Shown: piece after piece, positions 1-44,103 of the stretch
How positions within the stretch are numbered: the stretch's first letter is position 1
Layout of the letters: each line of letters begins with the position of its first letter
IMG/VR virus record: IMGVR_UViG_3300045988_091239
Location: 1-44,103 of that record
Direction: 5' to 3' (one strand)
DNA: 44,103 bases
From: a virus
The notes under the pieces: generated by a model
Database searches by the model: none
What the model was told of the DNA's origin: nothing
The model's input: only the letters and a program-made list of their open reading frames with translations
Position numbers and translations under genes: made by a program

Positions 1-55
1 GCTGCAATGAAATTGACAAAAAGCTAATGGCAATGTACGTTGAGAACCATGCGCC
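1..55. repeat. 55-bp terminal overlap identical to 44049..44103 (circular assembly closure; unit genome 44,048 bp)
   Basis: gctgcaatgaaattgacaaaaagctaatggcaatgtacgttgagaaccatgcgcc occurs at both window ends; an ORF is continuous across the join. Confidence 0.9.
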
Positions 56-19232: not shown

Positions 19233-19256
19233 ATTAAATAACAAAGGGTAAGTTAT
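19233..19256 (+). promoter_or_regulatory. conserved 24-nt box ATTAAATAACAAAGGGTAAGTTAT upstream of the scaffold-like gene
   Basis: 21/24 identical to 13693-13716. Confidence 0.45.
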
Positions 19257-32440: not shown

Positions 32441-33940
32441 ATGAATAAGTACGATGCTTTAAAAAATGCCGTTAAGAATGTTATCAAGAATAACGGCCGC
32501 CAAGAGATAACGGGAGATATTTTACAAAACATCCTTGTAAGATTTGTTGACACGTTCGGTAGTGACTACAATATTAAAGGTTTGGCAGATGCCAACCAAA
32601 TGCCAGACACCTCGGCGAAATGTATTTATTTCGCGACCGAAAGCGGAAGTTACCGCAATTATGGTGGGTTAGAATTGCATAAGGGTGAGGTGGCCATGTT
32701 AGTCTTTGATGGTGGCGGATGGAACAAGGTTTTGTTAGTCGACACGAGTGGCTTTGTTTCGTCTGAATATGTCACAGAAATAAACGTGAGCAGCCTTAAC
32801 GCCGATAGTTCGTTTGAGTTGGCCGCCGCAATTGCAAAAGTACCGCCAACTTACAGAAAGGGTGGTTTGACGATAAAATTTATCGAAAAATCGTCTAACG
32901 AATATGTGATGTACTATAACAAGAATAGTAGTTGGAGTACAGATGTAAATGATTGGATTAATCTACAATCCACGAAAAAAACTACAATGACAATTGAGGA
33001 GCTTAAAACATTCCCTGCATCAGTGGAGGAGGCTGTTAAGTTCTTGAAAAACAACAAAGATGCAAGTATTGTTGTACTAAGCAAATACGGCCGCGCTGTT
33101 GGAACATTAAGCATATACGGCAATTTAAGTAGTTACACTTTCATTGAAGTATTTGAAACGCAACTAAAAGTGAAGAGTGGCTACAATAGTAGTGAAATTA
33201 ACGGTAGTCCGCGCAAATATTGGCGATATTATGGGTTGGACAACTATGGAGGTGGAGTAGTTAGTCGCGGAGAGTGGTCTGAATGGAATGAAATGGTAAG
33301 TAAACCGTTTGAAATTCTACAATCACGCTTAAATAGTGTGTTGGACGTATATAACGGCTCACCGGTTGGTGGTGTAACTACAATTGGTAGGGCTCTCCGA
33401 GACATTGATGATGGCAATGTGTTTAAAAATAAGATAATGCTTATCAGTATTATTGACGAGGTTACGCATAAACGCACGTTATATTATTGCACTACCGAAA
33501 GTTTCTCACGAAACGAAAGCGATTGGGTTGAAGTAGGCAAGGGCGGTAATTTTGACGAACTTGTCAACGATGCAAAAAGGAAGATACAGGAGGCTGTTGA
33601 CCATGCTAAAACTATCCAAAAAGGAGAAAAGGGCGACAAGGGCGACACTGGTTGGTTAAGGCTTGTCAATCATGGCACGGCCGACACAACTTTTGCACTA
33701 ACACCAAACGCAATGCACGTTTGGGGACAGGTTGCGCAACTAAGATTAACGCTAGGCGCGGCAGTTCCTAACATTGTTAATGAATACGCTTTTGAGTTCC
33801 AATCGCCTGCCACGCCTACTAATTTATCATTGCCCGCTACATTGAAGTGGTACAATGGCTATGTTACACCAGTTCGCGCAAACAAACGCTACCAAGCTAG
33901 CATAGTGAATAACGTTATAATTATGGGGGAAATTGAGTAA
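32441..33940 (+). CDS. tail fibre / receptor-binding protein candidate
   Basis: 499 aa, short collagen-like GEKGDKGDTG triplets, last large gene of the tail module. Confidence 0.45.
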   Translation: MNKYDALKNAVKNVIKNNGRQEITGDILQNILVRFVDTFGSDYNIKGLADANQMPDTSAKCIYFATESGSYRNYGGLELHKGEVAMLVFDGGGWNKVLLVDTSGFVSSEYVTEINVSSLNADSSFELAAAIAKVPPTYRKGGLTIKFIEKSSNEYVMYYNKNSSWSTDVNDWINLQSTKKTTMTIEELKTFPASVEEAVKFLKNNKDASIVVLSKYGRAVGTLSIYGNLSSYTFIEVFETQLKVKSGYNSSEINGSPRKYWRYYGLDNYGGGVVSRGEWSEWNEMVSKPFEILQSRLNSVLDVYNGSPVGGVTTIGRALRDIDDGNVFKNKIMLISIIDEVTHKRTLYYCTTESFSRNESDWVEVGKGGNFDELVNDAKRKIQEAVDHAKTIQKGEKGDKGDTGWLRLVNHGTADTTFALTPNAMHVWGQVAQLRLTLGAAVPNIVNEYAFEFQSPATPTNLSLPATLKWYNGYVTPVRANKRYQASIVNNVIIMGEIE

Positions 33941-34467
33941 TGCACAGGCGAACAATGATGATGAGGAGTGACCTCGATATGTTATGCGTTGATGGTGTAA
34001 ACTATTCGGTACAGCCCGATAACGAAATATGGTACACCACCACCGATAATAACAAGTCGGATAACGCGGCCGTATTGAACAATTATGGAGGTGACAGAGA
34101 TATTAAGATATTGGCACATGTCTTTGAAAATGGTGTTTGGAAAGTAAAGGCAGACAGGCCAATACAAAGAATACCCGAAAGTTACATAAAACTTGCGCCG
34201 ACAATCGTGTCAATATCATTGCCTAAATCGGTATTTCATTGTGGTGCATGGTCAATGGGATTAAATCGTACTGCGCAATATTCACTTAACTTGCAAACCA
34301 TTATATTGGCTAGTGTGATAACGTCTTTTAATAGTGGTTTTGCACCATTTGCTTGTGGCGGTTTAAACATATATGTACCACGAGGAAAAAGAGAAGAGTT
34401 CATCGCAACAAAAATATTAGAAAAGACTCCAACAAACAAAGTCTTTGAGTGGGGTAGGGTTAAATAA
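33940..34467 (+). CDS. BspA-type leucine-rich-repeat-like protein
   Basis: PDNEIWYTTTDNN opening and IVSISLPKSVFHCGAWSM... repeats resemble Bacteroidetes BspA-like LRR proteins from memory. Confidence 0.4.
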   Translation: MHRRTMMMRSDLDMLCVDGVNYSVQPDNEIWYTTTDNNKSDNAAVLNNYGGDRDIKILAHVFENGVWKVKADRPIQRIPESYIKLAPTIVSISLPKSVFHCGAWSMGLNRTAQYSLNLQTIILASVITSFNSGFAPFACGGLNIYVPRGKREEFIATKILEKTPTNKVFEWGRVK

Positions 34468-34483
34468 AAGAAAGGGTAAAAGT

Positions 34484-34546
34484 ATGATAAGAATGTTATT
34501 CGTTTTGCTCCTTGGTCTGTTAACGAATGTAAACGGGGGGGGGTAA
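34484..34546 (+). CDS. 20-codon signal-peptide-like mini-ORF ending in a G9 tract
   Basis: MIRMLFVLLLGLLTNVNGGG*. Strong A-rich start context (AAAGGGTAAAAGTATG). A G8 tract would fuse it in frame to 34551..35123. Confidence 0.4.
   Translation: MIRMLFVLLLGLLTNVNGGG
34535..34543 (+). repeat. G9 homopolymer tract
   Basis: Counted directly: aaacgggggggggtaataac. Confidence 0.95.
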
Positions 34547-34550
34547 TAAC

Positions 34551-35123
34551 ATGAGTTTGACAAGATTAAGACTTATGCGGCAAGCATGGGGAGAACAAGA
34601 ATTGCAGTTTGTAGACCCTTACGCCCAAAAGGTTATGCGTGAGAAATATGGCAAACTAACAATGAATAATGTACGGTCAATAACTACACTAAATACTACA
34701 TTTACAACTGATGATTTGCGCAGTTTTGAGGAGTTGAAATATTTTACAAATGTAGAGTATTTATATAGAACTTTCTCACCATGTACAAACTTACGTGGAA
34801 CAATAACTGTACCAGATAGTGTTAAGAGAGTTAGTGTAGTTTGTTTCTTTCAAACGCAATTGGAGGGAATTGAATTTTTGGCACAAGATTTTAAATGGGC
34901 ATCATTAGCCATTAGGCAGAATAATAATTTGAGATGGATTAAGATGCACTCTATTGAGCCGCCGCAGAAGATTGAAAGTAATAAAACTCAATTTGATTAT
35001 GACAGCGGTAACAATACATGGAAATTATATGTACCTGATGGTTCAGTAGCTAAATATAAGGCTGATTTTAATTTCCAAAATCTTGGTGATAGAATTAGGC
35101 CAATGAGCGAATTTAAAGAATAA
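34551..35123 (+). CDS. LRR-like protein (as assembled, starts at the ATG 7 nt after the G9 tract)
   Basis: FTNVEYLYRTFSPCTNLRGTITVPDSVKRVSVVCF resembles BspA-type LRR units. The start context is G-rich, unlike other genes here. Confidence 0.5.
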   Translation: MSLTRLRLMRQAWGEQELQFVDPYAQKVMREKYGKLTMNNVRSITTLNTTFTTDDLRSFEELKYFTNVEYLYRTFSPCTNLRGTITVPDSVKRVSVVCFFQTQLEGIEFLAQDFKWASLAIRQNNNLRWIKMHSIEPPQKIESNKTQFDYDSGNNTWKLYVPDGSVAKYKADFNFQNLGDRIRPMSEFKE

Positions 35124-35126
35124 GTT

Positions 35127-35648
35127 ATGAGATACGTAGACGATAAGGGCAATTTTGCCAAAAATGAAATTGTATTAGATGGTATGTTGGTTTTAAACCC
35201 AACAGCCGAGCAGTACGAGAAAGCAGGCTATACACAATTTGTTGAGCCGATGCAGACAGCAGAAGACGAGTTAAGAAAGGCCATTGCCGCCAAGATTGAA
35301 GAGATAAGAGAGTACGACAAATCGACAGAGGTCAACTCTTTTTCTCTCGATGGCTTTAACGCGTGGATTAATCGAGAAGACCGCATAGGCACGCGCAAGG
35401 CGATAGAACTGATTAAGGCAGGCGGCAAACAGGAATGTGAAATTTGGCTGCAAGGTGTCCATTTGAAAGTAAATTGCGATTTGGCTTTGGCCTTGCTAGA
35501 TGAGGTAGGCCGTTACGCTTATGATGCGTATAACTGCACACAATCGCATATCCACGCAGTTGGCTTGTTAAAGTCGGTTGAGGAAGTCAACAATTACGAC
35601 TACAAGAAAGGTTATCCGAAAAAACTTGAACTAAAAACAACCTTGTAA
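35127..35648 (+). CDS. hypothetical tail-fibre-associated protein (DUF4376-like?)
   Basis: 173 aa. Central KIEEIREYDKS... and C-terminal NNYDYKKGYP pattern recalled from fibre-associated DUF4376 proteins; weak. Confidence 0.3.
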   Translation: MRYVDDKGNFAKNEIVLDGMLVLNPTAEQYEKAGYTQFVEPMQTAEDELRKAIAAKIEEIREYDKSTEVNSFSLDGFNAWINREDRIGTRKAIELIKAGGKQECEIWLQGVHLKVNCDLALALLDEVGRYAYDAYNCTQSHIHAVGLLKSVEEVNNYDYKKGYPKKLELKTTL

Positions 35649-35649
35649 C

Positions 35650-36090
35650 ATGGCGATAGCAAGTGCAATTGTACTAAGTGCCTATCTTATCATTATGGCA
35701 CTTTGTTACGGCGTAAAAAAGTACGTAAGTGACAATTATTATATAGGTAAGTGGCCGTGGGCGTTTTCCACGGCCATAGCCGTAAGCGGTGGACTATTAT
35801 TGCCGCCTATGCTCGACAAGGGCGGAAGTGTCCAATTTCTAGCGTTATTCGCCGTGTTTGGCCTTATGATGGTGGCAATATCGCCGCATTACAAGGTAGA
35901 GAAGATGCACAGCGTAGGGGCGATTATCGCGCTAGTGTGCGGTGTGGGTTGGGCGTTATCATTCCATCCAATACCAATAATATGCGTTATAGCCTTATGG
36001 TGCATATACTACTTATTGAAGTTACCTAGACCTTATTACATTGGTGAAGTAACAGCTTTCGTAATAATATACATAACTACAATACTATAA
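35650..36090 (+). CDS. multi-TM membrane protein (holin-like)
   Basis: Hydrophobic over almost its whole length (4 or more TM segments by eye), upstream of the endolysin. Confidence 0.45.
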   Translation: MAIASAIVLSAYLIIMALCYGVKKYVSDNYYIGKWPWAFSTAIAVSGGLLLPPMLDKGGSVQFLALFAVFGLMMVAISPHYKVEKMHSVGAIIALVCGVGWALSFHPIPIICVIALWCIYYLLKLPRPYYIGEVTAFVIIYITTIL

Positions 36091-42084: not shown

Positions 42085-42202
42085 AAAGAAATTAATAGGC
42101 TTATTCCATCACAATAAGCAAAAAATATTTGCAGTGCAACTTTTCCCCTATCTTCAAAGTGTGTGATGGCCTTTGTTGATGGGGGTTTTTCTTTTTAAAG
42201 TT

Positions 42203-42982
42203 ATGGAACAAAATAACTTGATTATCCGCCATAATAGCGGCGGTAACTTCACAATTCTAAACAACGAGATTTTGCAGGACACGAATATGACGTTTTTTGC
42301 AAAAGGGCTTTTATGTTATTTGTTGAGTTTGCCAAAATATTGGGAGGTGAATGTGGCACAGGTGGCCGACAAGTTCGGCGAAAAGGAATGCCGTATATTA
42401 AGGGCATTCCGCGAACTGATAGACCTAGGCTATTGTATGCGTAAAGCATACCATGAGAATGGCCGCTTAAAGGGTCAAAGGTACTATGTTAGCGATGTGG
42501 CTGGCGTGTTTGGCGAAATTGATAAAAAGCCAAAAGAGCCAAGTCTTTTTGACGAGAATACAGCCCCCCCGAAAAAAGGGGACACTGAATGCACAGCCCC
42601 CCAAAAAAACACGCCCACTGAAAATACAGCCCCAACGAAAAAGGGGGGGGCATATACAAATAACAATAGTATAGATACAAAAGAATATTATAATAAGAAC
42701 AAAAAAACGCTTTTTTCCGAAAATTCGGTTTTGGCGGATATTGATTTTGTTTTGGAAAAGTTCGCAGGTGTCGAGTACGAGGAGGTTGATATAGTGTACT
42801 ACTATCACGCCGTGCGCGATTGGAGCGATAGCAGCAATACCAAACGAACCGAAAACGGATGGTTAGCCACTATTCGGAGTTTTATTCGCACGGATATAGA
42901 GCGCAACAAATTGCACAAGAAAACACAATATAGGGCGGATGCAGTTATAGCGGATGAGGCTCTTCAATTCTTAAAGATGTAG
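42203..42982 (+). CDS. replication initiator / replisome organiser-like winged-helix protein
   Basis: ATG at 42203. NFTILNNEILQDTNMTFFAKGLLCYLLSLPKYWEVNVAQVADKFGEKECRILRAFRELIDLGY is the typical phage Rep/DnaD-like N-terminal wHTH pattern. Confidence 0.5.
   Translation: MEQNNLIIRHNSGGNFTILNNEILQDTNMTFFAKGLLCYLLSLPKYWEVNVAQVADKFGEKECRILRAFRELIDLGYCMRKAYHENGRLKGQRYYVSDVAGVFGEIDKKPKEPSLFDENTAPPKKGDTECTAPQKNTPTENTAPTKKGGAYTNNNSIDTKEYYNKNKKTLFSENSVLADIDFVLEKFAGVEYEEVDIVYYYHAVRDWSDSSNTKRTENGWLATIRSFIRTDIERNKLHKKTQYRADAVIADEALQFLKM
42557..42650 (+). repeat. three tandem degenerate ~31-33-nt repeats rich in C/A/G homopolymers (iteron-like)
   Basis: AATACAGCCCCCCCGAAAAAAGGGGACACTG / AATGCACAGCCCCCCAAAAAAACACGCCCACTG / AAAATACAGCCCCAACGAAAAAGGGGGGGG. 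Encodes NTAPPKKGDTE/CTAPQKNTPTE/NTAPTKKGG. Confidence 0.8.
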
Positions 42983-43924: not shown

Positions 43925-44103
43925 ATGAAATTAAATTGGAGATTACAAGATACTGAATTTACCAAGGATAAAGGCAAGGTGTTTTCTTGTTTTGCTTGTG
44001 GGGGGGGGAGTACAATGGGCTATAAACTAGCGGGTTACGATGTTATTAGCTGCAATGAAATTGACAAAAAGCTAATGGCAATGTACGTTGAGAACCATGC
44101 GCC
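43925..44103 (+). CDS. dcm: DNA (cytosine-5)-methyltransferase, 5' portion (continues at 56..935 of the circle)
   Basis: MKLNWRLQDTEFTKDKGKVFSCFACGGGSTMGYKLAGYDVISCNEID... contains motif I (FxGxG); in frame across the junction. Confidence 0.85.
   Translation, partial: MKLNWRLQDTEFTKDKGKVFSCFACGGGSTMGYKLAGYDVISCNEIDKKLMAMYVENHA
44000..44008 (+). repeat. G9 homopolymer encoding the Gly-Gly-Gly of methyltransferase motif I
   Basis: tgt ggg ggg ggg agt, counted directly. Confidence 0.95.
44049..44103. repeat. second copy of the 55-bp terminal overlap
   Basis: Identical to 1..55. Confidence 0.9.

What the first reader, a model, noticed from the sequence alone, without database searches (positions are those of the whole stretch)
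34460..34560. G9 tract separates a signal-peptide mini-ORF from the downstream LRR gene; a G8 tract would fuse them (phase-variation-like switch or homopolymer miscall)
An ATG at 34484 has the best kind of start context in this genome (AAAGGGTAAAAGTATG, plus a degenerate copy of the box found upstream of terS and the scaffold gene). It encodes MIRMLFVLLLGLLTNVNGGG*, a textbook n-region plus hydrophobic core. It terminates only because the G run at 34535-34543 has 9 residues. With 8 G the frame reads ...NVNGGGNNMSLTRLRL..., directly into the 190-aa LRR-like ORF (34551-35123). That ORF's own ATG sits in an atypical G-rich context (GGGGGGGGGTAATAACATG). Tract length would therefore decide whether the LRR protein is made with an export signal, made without one, or made poorly. 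Slipped-strand mispairing at poly-G tracts is an established phase-variation mechanism. In a phage it could diversify a surface, exclusion or receptor-binding accessory protein.
Basis: seen in the sequence. Interest (0 to 1): 0.65.

Follow-up and report, generated by a model that had tools for sequence, protein, structure and literature searches.

The report
Poly-G frame switch in Prevotella phage
A run of nine G's in this Prevotella phage sits between a short signal-peptide-like leader and a tail-fibre-associated leucine-rich-repeat gene; related phages carry 7 to 10 G's at the same spot, so tract length decides whether the protein is made with or without the leader, a mutational switch known from a few other phages but not from this group.

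Summary
Comparative data support a real switch. The same leader/poly-G/LRR module occurs in over 15 related contigs with G7, G8, G9, G10, TG7 and G5AG7/G5AG8. In the frame-blind sample, 5 are in frame and 6 out of frame. Two contigs with 1 mismatch in about 2 kb differ by one G and in frame. GGG is the rarest Gly codon here (10.6%), yet the run persists across lineages about 70% identical. A second tract, in a C5 DNA methyltransferase, is G9 in frame here and G10 out of frame in three relatives. C6-C8 and G7-G8 runs in a replication gene stay in frame in all eight genomes. Every out-of-frame leader stops 0-4 nt from the LRR ATG, and leaderless relatives use that ATG. The switch is therefore probably "with or without leader" rather than on/off. 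The signal-peptide assignment is heuristic, and a miscall in this single assembly cannot be excluded. Host: Prevotella (CRISPR spacers). This is a new variant of known phage poly-G contingency loci.

The parts
33940..34467 (+). Upstream 175-aa ORF. It is homologous to the N-terminal half of the 350-aa two-domain LRR proteins of relatives. It is a replaceable cassette: L009-type genomes have a 123-aa gene here instead.
   Evidence: (P0004, P0008, P0034, P0040 align over both halves).
34471..34479 (+). AAAGGGTAA motif 4 nt upstream of the leader ATG, within an A-rich start context.
   Evidence: exact copies only at 19243 and 34471, both just upstream of ATGs; 60% A in the 20 nt before the ATG.
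34484..34546 (+). Leader mini-ORF MIRMLFVLLLGLLTNVNGGG* of signal-peptide-like build: R at position 3, an 11-residue hydrophobic core and a polar NVNGGG tail.
   Evidence: Conserved in two diverged sublineages (MIRMLFVLLLSLLTNVNGGG and MIKLLLASLLYLLTNVNGGG). In the AlphaFold model it is a detached helix with pLDDT below 50.
34535..34543 (+). G9 homopolymer, the variable tract. G9 puts the leader out of frame with the LRR ORF here.
   Evidence: Relatives have G7, TG7, G8, G9, G10, G5AG7 and G5AG8.
34544..34550 (+). 7-nt linker TAATAAC. It supplies the TAA stop for the G9 frame. Together with ATGA at the LRR start it supplies a TGA stop for the G7/G10 frame, and it reads Asn-Asn in the G8 frame.
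   Evidence: Read from the sequence. All seven out-of-frame alleles stop 0-4 nt from the LRR ATG.
34551..35123 (+). 190-aa BspA-type leucine-rich-repeat protein with its own ATG (MSLTRLRL...).
   Evidence: Pfam LRR_5 match below threshold. AlphaFold pLDDT above 90 for the domain. Best fold matches are Bacteroides surface LRR proteins and LRR proteins of uncultured gut phages. Leaderless relatives start at the same ATG, overlapping the stop of the fibre gene.
34514..34567 (+). Candidate RNA hairpin. Leader codons 34514-34530 pair with 34549-34567, enclosing the G tract and the LRR start codon. Tentative.
   Evidence: Fold z-score -2.9. Consensus stem is 98% paired across 14 sequences, but covariation is weak (21 of 500 shuffles do as well) and both arms are coding.
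34634..35010 (+). Hypervariable centre of the LRR gene, not alignable by blastn with the otherwise 88-92% identical genome L031.
44000..44008 (+). Second variable poly-G tract (G9, in frame here), in motif I of a C5 cytosine DNA methyltransferase. The gene starts at ATG 43925 and continues at the window start because the genome is circular.

Best explanation
The G run is a hypermutable homopolymer, that is, a contingency locus that changes length by slipped-strand mispairing during phage or prophage DNA replication. It sits at the junction between a 17-residue signal-peptide-like leader and a complete LRR gene in the tail-fibre module of a Prevotella phage. With G8 (or G8 plus or minus 3n) the leader is fused to the LRR protein through a Gly-Gly-Gly-Asn-Asn linker. 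With G9 the leader ORF stops at a TAA directly after the tract, 4 nt before the LRR ATG. With G7 or G10 it stops at a TGA that overlaps the LRR ATG (ATATGA). In those two frames the LRR protein would be made, if at all, from its own ATG by termination-reinitiation, without the leader. A phage population would therefore hold a heritable but reversible mixture of genomes making leader-bearing (probably exported or membrane-targeted) and leaderless (cytoplasmic, probably virion- or fibre-associated) LRR protein. Shown: the tract, its length polymorphism, the frame consequences, the existence of both protein forms in relatives, and the conservation of the homopolymer against codon bias. Inferred: the slippage mechanism, reversibility within a population, export of the leader form, reinitiation in the out-of-frame states, and the biological role.
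For: (1) The same module has G7, TG7, G8, G9, G10, G5AG7 or G5AG8 in over 15 distinct contigs. In the sample retrieved without regard to frame (9 IMG/VR contigs, L027 and the window), 5 are in frame and 6 are out of frame. (2) L049 (G5AG8, in frame) and L050 (G5AG7, out of frame) differ at 0 of 70 nt upstream and 1 of 2000 nt downstream. They come from different samples and different assemblers. (3) Within single 90%-identity protein clusters the protein occurs as 218-224 aa fused forms and as 191/192 or 199/200 aa short forms. (4) GGG is the rarest Gly codon (10.6%). All six other Gly-Gly-Gly runs in the genome use mixed codons. Even so, the run is kept in two sublineages that are only about 70% identical in flanking DNA and whose leaders differ in sequence. 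(5) Control: C6-C8 and G7-G8 runs in the replication gene 42173-42982 keep the frame in all 8 genomes compared. (6) A second tract behaves the same way: in the C5 methyltransferase it is G9 in frame here and G10 out of frame in L041, L042 and L047, and removing one G from L047 restores an intact 352-aa protein. (7) The LRR ATG is a real start: leaderless relatives, including a cultured Prevotella isolate, begin at MSLTRLRL with the ATG overlapping the stop of the fibre gene. (8) All seven out-of-frame alleles end the leader ORF 0-4 nt from that ATG. (9) The leader has signal-peptide proportions and is not part of the folded domain. (10) Precedents exist: poly-G tracts in Campylobacter phage receptor-binding genes and contingency loci in coliphages, and a homo-G tract in the signal-peptide region of gonococcal pilC.
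Against: No read-level data were available. Every tract length is a consensus call from a short-read metagenome assembly, some at low coverage (3.6x to 6.6x k-mer coverage for L027 and L028). The frame-preserved control runs are at most 8 nt long, one shorter than the tracts in question. No within-sample heterogeneity or reversion was observed. The signal-peptide assignment is not from a trained predictor. The related 350-aa two-domain proteins and the leaderless forms have no export signal, which makes an exported form of the same domain biologically puzzling. Most of the genomes compared are only about 90% identical, so most of the length differences could have accumulated slowly.
Confidence: 0.7

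Rival explanations
1. Homopolymer miscall. The true sequence in this phage is G8, the gene is simply a 212-aa leader-bearing LRR protein, and the length differences among contigs are sequencing or assembly errors.
For: G runs of 9-10 are error-prone, several contigs have low coverage, and no reads could be examined.
Against: About half of the independent assemblies would have to be wrong at this one site. Homopolymers of 6-8 nt in an essential gene of the same contigs are in frame in 8 of 8 genomes. The other G9 in this same assembly is in frame in a well-conserved methyltransferase motif. L050, an out-of-frame allele, has 11x coverage and L031, an in-frame allele, has 31x. The out-of-frame alleles span three different lengths from different assemblers (SPAdes and MEGAHIT contig names).
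Confidence: 0.1
2. Plain on/off switch. Only the leader-fused protein is functional, and out-of-frame tracts silence the gene because the G-rich, possibly hairpin-masked internal ATG is not used.
For: The LRR ATG has the poorest start context in the genome (45% G). A predicted stem sequesters it. Classical contingency loci such as pilC work this way.
Against: The identical ATG is the only possible start in leaderless relatives, where it overlaps the stop of the upstream gene. Every out-of-frame leader ends 0-4 nt from it, the geometry of translational coupling. Ribosomes translating the leader would melt the stem.
Confidence: 0.25
3. The leader is an independent small hydrophobic peptide gene or a coupling upstream ORF. 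The G tract is a neutral, unstable junction, and fusion to the LRR protein is incidental.
For: Half of the genomes encode it as a free-standing 20-24-aa ORF. Its 3' half (CTGTTAACNAATGTAAAC) is conserved at the nucleotide level, including synonymous sites, more than its 5' half.
Against: In the in-frame state there is never a stop between the leader and the LRR ORF in any sublineage, even though the linker varies (NN, KN, SM, N, DN, SRY). L036 compensates for G9 with a 9-nt linker that keeps the fusion. A neutral G run should decay towards the preferred GGC/GGT codons.
Confidence: 0.12
4. Recoding rather than mutation. Ribosomal +1 frameshifting at GGG-UAA, or RNA polymerase slippage on the G run, yields both products from one genotype.
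For: A stop codon directly after a slippery run (GGG GGG GGG UAA) resembles the known +1 shift-site layout (my own knowledge, not tested). It could coexist with DNA-level variation.
Against: DNA tract length itself varies and by itself explains both products. The out-of-frame alleles fall in both alternative frames, which no single recoding event would rescue. No conserved stimulatory element was found beyond a weakly supported stem, and there is no Rfam match.
Confidence: 0.08

Closest known systems
Hypermutable poly-G tracts in receptor-binding protein genes of Campylobacter Fletchervirus phages (Sorensen et al. 2021, Cell Rep 35:109214, as cited in PMC12823448 and bioRxiv 10.1101/2025.10.21.683753)
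   Same: A phage-encoded poly-G tract of 7-11 nt in a tail or host-recognition module gene. Length variation shifts the frame and creates subpopulations.
   Different: The phage and host phylum are unrelated: a Prevotella siphovirus-like phage, with no DNA match in the GenBank phage set. Here the tract lies at a leader/ORF junction, so both out-of-frame states end next to an internal start. The likely result is a change of N-terminus, not loss of the protein. Receptor binding by the LRR protein has not been shown.
Neisseria gonorrhoeae pilC homo-G tract within the signal-peptide coding region (PMC5354566)
   Same: A poly-G run inside the region encoding an N-terminal export signal; frameshifts there control the protein.
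   Different: pilC is a bacterial chromosomal gene. Its out-of-frame state gives no PilC, because there is no internal start codon with an independent, naturally occurring leaderless form.
Phage contingency loci in T2/T4 and other coliphages (Gomez, Barrick and Waters, bioRxiv 10.1101/2025.10.21.683753)
   Same: The concept is the same: short homopolymers in phage genes that mutate reversibly and provide bet-hedging.
   Different: Those tracts are mostly runs of 6 nt or more found in many gene classes, and they inactivate genes. That study reports them under-represented in tail-fibre genes. Here the tract is a long G run, kept against codon bias in a host-recognition module.
Phase-variable DNA methyltransferases (phasevarions) and the poly-G tract noted in a Bordetella phage BPP-1 methylase gene (mentioned in bioRxiv 10.1101/2025.10.21.683753)
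   Same: This applies to the second tract: a poly-G run in the 5' part of a DNA methyltransferase gene, with frame-toggling length variants among relatives.
   Different: This is a phage C5 cytosine methylase (PF00145) with the tract in the motif I glycines. No regulatory or anti-restriction consequence has been tested.
Other tail-fibre diversification systems: the Mu G-segment inversion and diversity-generating retroelements (cited in PMC12823448)
   Same: They create heritable heterogeneity in host-recognition proteins from one phage genome.
   Different: The mechanism is entirely different (site-specific inversion or mutagenic retrohoming). No invertase, inverted repeats or reverse transcriptase are involved here.

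Membership tests
Homopolymer contingency locus (phase variation by slipped-strand mispairing) | An uninterrupted mononucleotide run, about 7 nt or longer, in or just before the 5' coding region | tested here: met
   G9 at 34535-34543 at the end of the leader ORF, 8 nt before the LRR ATG.
Homopolymer contingency locus (phase variation by slipped-strand mispairing) | Tract-length polymorphism among closely related genomes that changes the reading frame | tested here: met
   G7 to G10 across relatives. L049 and L050 differ by 1 mismatch in about 2 kb but by one G in the tract and in frame.
Homopolymer contingency locus (phase variation by slipped-strand mispairing) | Out-of-frame alleles carry no other inactivating lesions, so the change is reversible in principle | tested here: met
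   The LRR ORF is intact in all out-of-frame alleles. For the methyltransferase tract, removing one G from L047 restores 352 aa.
Homopolymer contingency locus (phase variation by slipped-strand mispairing) | The tract is maintained by selection rather than by codon preference | tested here: met
   GGG makes up 10.6% of Gly codons. The other six Gly-Gly-Gly runs use mixed codons. The run persists in sublineages about 70% identical.
Homopolymer contingency locus (phase variation by slipped-strand mispairing) | High-frequency, reversible switching within a clonal population | not testable with these tools
   No reads and no cultures; only consensus assemblies were available.
Sec-type (signal peptidase I) signal peptide | Short positively charged n-region, a hydrophobic h-region of 7-15 residues, and a polar c-region with small residues at -3 and -1 | tested here: met
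   R or K at position 3. The uncharged core MLFVLLLGLLT (11 aa) has a 10-residue Kyte-Doolittle mean of 2.2-3.1. The 19-residue mean is 1.05-1.8, lower than the 2.57 of the 209-aa protein's N-terminal hydrophobic segment. The c-region is TNVNGGG, with V-N-G or G-G-G at positions -3 to -1 (and inspection).
Sec-type (signal peptidase I) signal peptide | Positive call by a trained predictor, or demonstrated export and cleavage | not testable with these tools
   No SignalP-type tool was on hand. The AlphaFold model shows only that residues 1-22 are a detached, low-confidence helix plus linker.
BspA-type leucine-rich repeat (Pfam LRR_5, PF13306) | A match to the family profile above the curated threshold | tested here: inconclusive
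   18.3 bits against a cut-off of 27.7 for the window protein. Several homologues carry a precomputed PF13306 hit.
BspA-type leucine-rich repeat (Pfam LRR_5, PF13306) | An LRR solenoid fold resembling solved BspA-like proteins | tested here: met
   The model has pLDDT 86. The top PDB matches are Bacteroides putative surface LRR proteins 4fdw, 4fd0 and 4fs7 (E = 5e-3 to 0.4, probability 0.95-1.0). The top viral match is an LRR protein of an uncultured siphovirus (E = 6e-6).
Fletchervirus-type phase-variable receptor-binding protein | The poly-G-bearing gene encodes a demonstrated receptor-binding protein | not tested
   Only position supports this (directly after the fibre genes, with start-stop overlap in leaderless relatives) together with the hypervariable centre.
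Phase-variable DNA methyltransferase (second tract) | A DNA methyltransferase with a repeat tract whose length variants toggle the frame | tested here: met
   PF00145 with E = 5e-48. G9 is in frame here, G10 is out of frame in three relatives, and G9 plus C is out of frame in one.

The most novel reading that the evidence does not exclude
One gene, two destinations. The tract is a heritable, reversible sorting switch. Leaderless LRR protein is made by coupling and joins the tail fibre as an adhesin or assembly partner. The leader-fused form of the same binding domain is exported to the host envelope, where it could mask the phage's own receptor, giving superinfection exclusion or protecting progeny from debris, or act as a BspA-like surface protein of the lysogen. 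Together with the phase-variable methyltransferase, this would give these oral and gut Prevotella phages a small set of poly-G contingency genes, a strategy not described for phages of Bacteroidota.
Probability: 0.2. Interest if true: 0.8.

Novelty: new variant of a known kind. Interest (0 to 1): 0.6.

Why it matters
Prevotella is a dominant genus of the human oral and gut microbiota, and very few of its phages have been cultured. Phase variation in Bacteroidota is known mainly from DNA inversion on the host side. If the tract is hypermutable, a temperate-type Prevotella phage family itself uses poly-G contingency loci, in a host-recognition module and in a DNA methyltransferase, to generate heterogeneous progeny. 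That bears on host range, on coexistence of phage and host, and on how such genes are annotated: the fused, split and short forms are currently called as different proteins. The junction architecture also offers a simple, testable example of a mutational switch that changes the N-terminus of a protein, and probably its location, rather than its presence.

Tried and rejected
- **GenBank phage collection:** megablast of 33900-35700 found no match, so no annotated close relative exists there.
- **Window's own LRR protein:** an exact look-up of the 190-aa protein found nothing on record.
- **Genome collection:** a scan with the leader DNA found no exact match.
- **PHROGs:** no hits for the 175-, 190- or 173-aa proteins.
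- **Rfam:** nothing meaningful around the tract.
- **Sigma-70 promoter and terminator scan:** nothing above shuffles. The scan is also not suited to Bacteroidota promoters.
- **RNA hairpin enclosing the LRR start:** well paired, but covariation is weak and both arms are coding. I keep it only as a tentative part.
- **The five P0075 contigs, all G8:** these cannot count as evidence of stable calling, because they were retrieved by exact identity to the fused protein.
- **Methyltransferase G9 as a 'stable' control:** it turned out to vary as well. The replication-gene runs became the control instead.
- **Broader leader pattern:** a scan of the viral collection added no new loci.
- **Transmembrane anchor:** rejected for the leader because the hydrophobic stretch is only 11 residues.
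- **Minus-strand 48-aa ORF across the tract (34417-34563):** rejected because every credible gene in the window is on the + strand and tract variation would break its frame.
Full report
**What is in the sequence.**
- An ATG at 34484 opens a 20-codon ORF, MIRMLFVLLLGLLTNVNGGG.
- Its last three codons are the nine G's at 34535-34543. It stops at TAA 34544-34546, and seven bases after the tract the 190-aa ORF starts at ATG 34551.
- With eight G's the two ORFs read as one: ...NVNGGGNNMSLTRLRL....
- By composition, 0.05-0.09 runs of nine or more G are expected in this window. It has two G9 runs and one G8.
- The leader ATG has the A-rich upstream context typical of this genome's genes. The LRR ATG has the most G-rich context of all 50 starts examined.

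**What the window is.**
- It has a 55-nt terminal overlap, so it is a circular assembly of about 44.05 kb. All credible genes are on the + strand.
- The finding lies at the end of the tail module. Upstream are 1267-, 839-, 380- and 499-aa genes; the 380-aa protein matches a tail-fibre N-terminus and the 499-aa protein has a collagen-like stretch. Downstream are a conserved 173-aa gene, two membrane proteins and an amidase.
- A 92-repeat CRISPR array on metagenome contig L029 has about 25 spacers matching this genome. One spacer covers the leader and G run itself. The same repeat occurs in an uncultured Prevotella MAG, whose array also targets the phage.
- Named homologues come from Hoylesella shahii, H. 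loescheii and Prevotella sp. oral taxon 472. In the last of these the gene lies in an integrated prophage.
- So this is a Prevotella/Hoylesella phage of a family that also occurs as prophages.

**The decisive comparison.** A search with the hypothetical fused product found homologues in four architectures:
- (a) The LRR gene stands alone, and its ATG overlaps the stop of the preceding fibre gene (ATGA).
- (b) A 350-aa protein in which the homologue of the upstream 175-aa ORF is joined directly to the LRR domain.
- (c) The 175-aa ORF, then leader and poly-G, then the LRR gene, as in the window.
- (d) A different 123-aa gene, then the same leader, poly-G and LRR gene.

(P0018).

At the DNA level the tract is as follows:

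| Tract | Contigs | Frame |
|---|---|---|
| G7 | L008 | out |
| TG7 | L007 | in |
| G8 | L006, L011, L013, L014, L031, L037, L051-55 | in |
| G9 | window, L009, L010, L016 | out |
| G9 with a 9-nt linker | L036 | in |
| G10 | L027 | out |
| G5AG8 | L049 | in |
| G5AG7 | L050 | out |

In the subset retrieved without regard to frame (nine IMG/VR contigs, L027 and the window), five are in frame and six are out.

**Real variation or miscalls?** No reads were available, so the argument is indirect.
- L049 and L050 come from different samples and different assemblers. They are identical over the 70 nt upstream and differ at 1 of 2000 nt downstream, yet differ by one G in the tract and therefore in frame.
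- In the tight L006-L009/L036 group, whose upstream 400 nt are 96-98% identical, the tract shows four states.
- Within single 90%-identity protein clusters the protein exists as 218-224 aa fused forms and as 191/192 or 199/200 aa short forms.
- As a control, the replication gene 42173-42982 contains C6-C8 and G7-G8 runs and is full-length and in frame in all eight genomes compared. There, length changes in one run are balanced by neighbouring substitutions.
- The other G9 in this assembly is in frame in a well-conserved motif.
- A general homopolymer-error explanation would require about half of the independent assemblies to be wrong at this one site. I rate it at about 0.1, although a miscall in this single window cannot be excluded.

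**Is the homopolymer itself selected?**
- GGG is the rarest glycine codon in this genome (10.6%). The six other Gly-Gly-Gly runs in its genes all use mixed codons.
- The G run is nevertheless retained in two sublineages whose flanks are only about 70% identical and whose leaders have diverged (MIRMLFVLLLSLLTNVNGGG against MIKLLLASLLYLLTNVNGGG).
- The leader keeps its hydrophobic character through these changes.
- That pattern fits selection for mutability plus a compositional constraint on the peptide.

**A second tract.**
- The G9 at 44000-44008 encodes the motif I glycines (FACGGGSTMGY) of a C5 cytosine DNA methylase (PF00145, E = 5e-48), which is intact at 352 aa in the window.
- In L041, L042 and L047 the tract is G10, and in L043 it is G9 followed by C. 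All four truncate at 33 aa. Removing one G from L047 restores the 352-aa protein.
- Three further relatives have lost the gene.
- So this phage family has at least two frame-toggling poly-G tracts, in the two gene classes where bacterial contingency loci are typical.

**What the switch probably does.**
- The leader has the build of a Sec signal peptide. It has K or R at position 3, an 11-residue hydrophobic core that is too short for a membrane span, and a polar NVNGGG tail with small residues at -3 and -1.
- In an AlphaFold model of the natural fusion P0014 (mean pLDDT 86), residues 1-22 are a detached low-confidence helix plus linker. The LRR domain is confident.
- The domain resembles Bacteroides BspA-type putative surface proteins and LRR proteins of uncultured gut phages.
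- The LRR ATG is a genuine start, because leaderless relatives use it with start-stop overlap to the fibre gene.
- In every out-of-frame allele the leader ORF ends 0-4 nt from that ATG. G9 gives a TAA directly after the tract. G7, G10 and G5AG7 give a TGA within ATATGA.
- That geometry suggests termination-reinitiation. I therefore favour 'leader-bearing versus leaderless protein' over plain on/off, but this step is inferred.
- A predicted stem pairs leader codons with LRR codons 3-6 and encloses the start codon. It is 98% paired but has weak covariation, and both arms are coding, so I treat it as tentative.
- The centre of the LRR gene (34634-35010) is not alignable with an otherwise 88-92% identical genome. 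Together with its position after the fibre genes, this fits a host-recognition or fibre-accessory role. That role is not shown.

**Relation to what is known.**
- Hypermutable poly-G tracts of 7-11 nt in receptor-binding genes are described for Campylobacter Fletchervirus phages.
- Poly-G tracts have been noted in a Bordetella phage methylase gene and a PB1-like baseplate gene.
- A 2025 preprint generalises contingency loci to coliphages.
- A homo-G tract inside a signal-peptide region controls gonococcal pilC.
- What differs here:
  - the host group, Prevotella (Bacteroidota);
  - the junction architecture, in which all three frames give a defined outcome;
  - the natural leaderless and two-domain forms of the same protein;
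  - the pairing with a variable methyltransferase tract.
- I class it as a new variant of a known kind.

**Verdict.**
- Confidence is about 0.7 that this is a real, selected, tract-length switch controlling leader fusion.
- Confidence is lower (about 0.5-0.55) for two specific steps: export of the fused form and reinitiation in the other frames.
- Interest is 0.6.

Noticed in passing
window 43925-44103, continuing at 56-935 (circular); tract at 44000-44008: A C5 cytosine DNA methyltransferase (PF00145) carries a G9 tract in its motif I glycines. It is in frame here (352 aa). The tract is G10 and out of frame in L041, L042 and L047, and G9 plus C and out of frame in L043. The gene is deleted, leaving N-terminal remnants, in L040, L044 and L045. 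This is a phasevarion-like second contingency locus.
   Followed up: yes
L029 1-7600 (the spacer at about 7513 matches window 34515-34541); L048: A CRISPR array of 92 repeats (47 nt each) has about 25 spacers against this phage. One spacer covers the leader and the G run. The same repeat occurs in an uncultured Prevotella MAG, whose spacers also hit the phage. This assigns the host and shows the leader region is a CRISPR target.
   Followed up: yes
window 1-55 and 44049-44103: A 55-nt exact terminal overlap. The window is a complete circular assembly of about 44,048 bp, and the ORF at 27-935 is the 3' part of the methyltransferase gene.
   Followed up: yes
window 42540-42670 (within ORF 42173-42982): The replication/HTH protein has a linker built of repeated NTAP(P/Q/T)KK motifs, encoded by C7, C6 and G8 runs interleaved with A runs. 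Individual run lengths differ among relatives, but the total length and the frame are always preserved.
   Followed up: partly
window 33940-35123; L001-L005, L009, L012, L032-L035, L038-L039, L056: The segment between the fibre gene and the conserved 173-aa gene is a cassette hotspot. It holds a stand-alone LRR gene, a 350-aa two-domain fusion, a 175-aa ORF plus leader plus LRR, or a 123-aa gene plus leader plus LRR. The junction motif EWG/AWG-EQE is shared by all forms, which suggests recombination at that point.
   Followed up: partly
L049 1551-1564 and L050 71-83: A sublineage has a 6-nt in-frame expansion of the tract (GGGGGA followed by G7 or G8), giving five glycines. The 3' part still varies by one G.
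   Followed up: yes
window 34517-34534: The 3' half of the leader (CTGTTAACNAATGTAAAC, containing the palindrome GTTAAC) is nearly invariant at the nucleotide level, including synonymous sites, across sublineages whose 5' leader halves have diverged. The reason is unknown; candidates are slippage context, an RNA stem or a recombination site.
   Followed up: partly
window, whole: Long A runs are frequent (one A10, two A9, eight A8). I did not check their positions or their variability among relatives.
   Followed up: no
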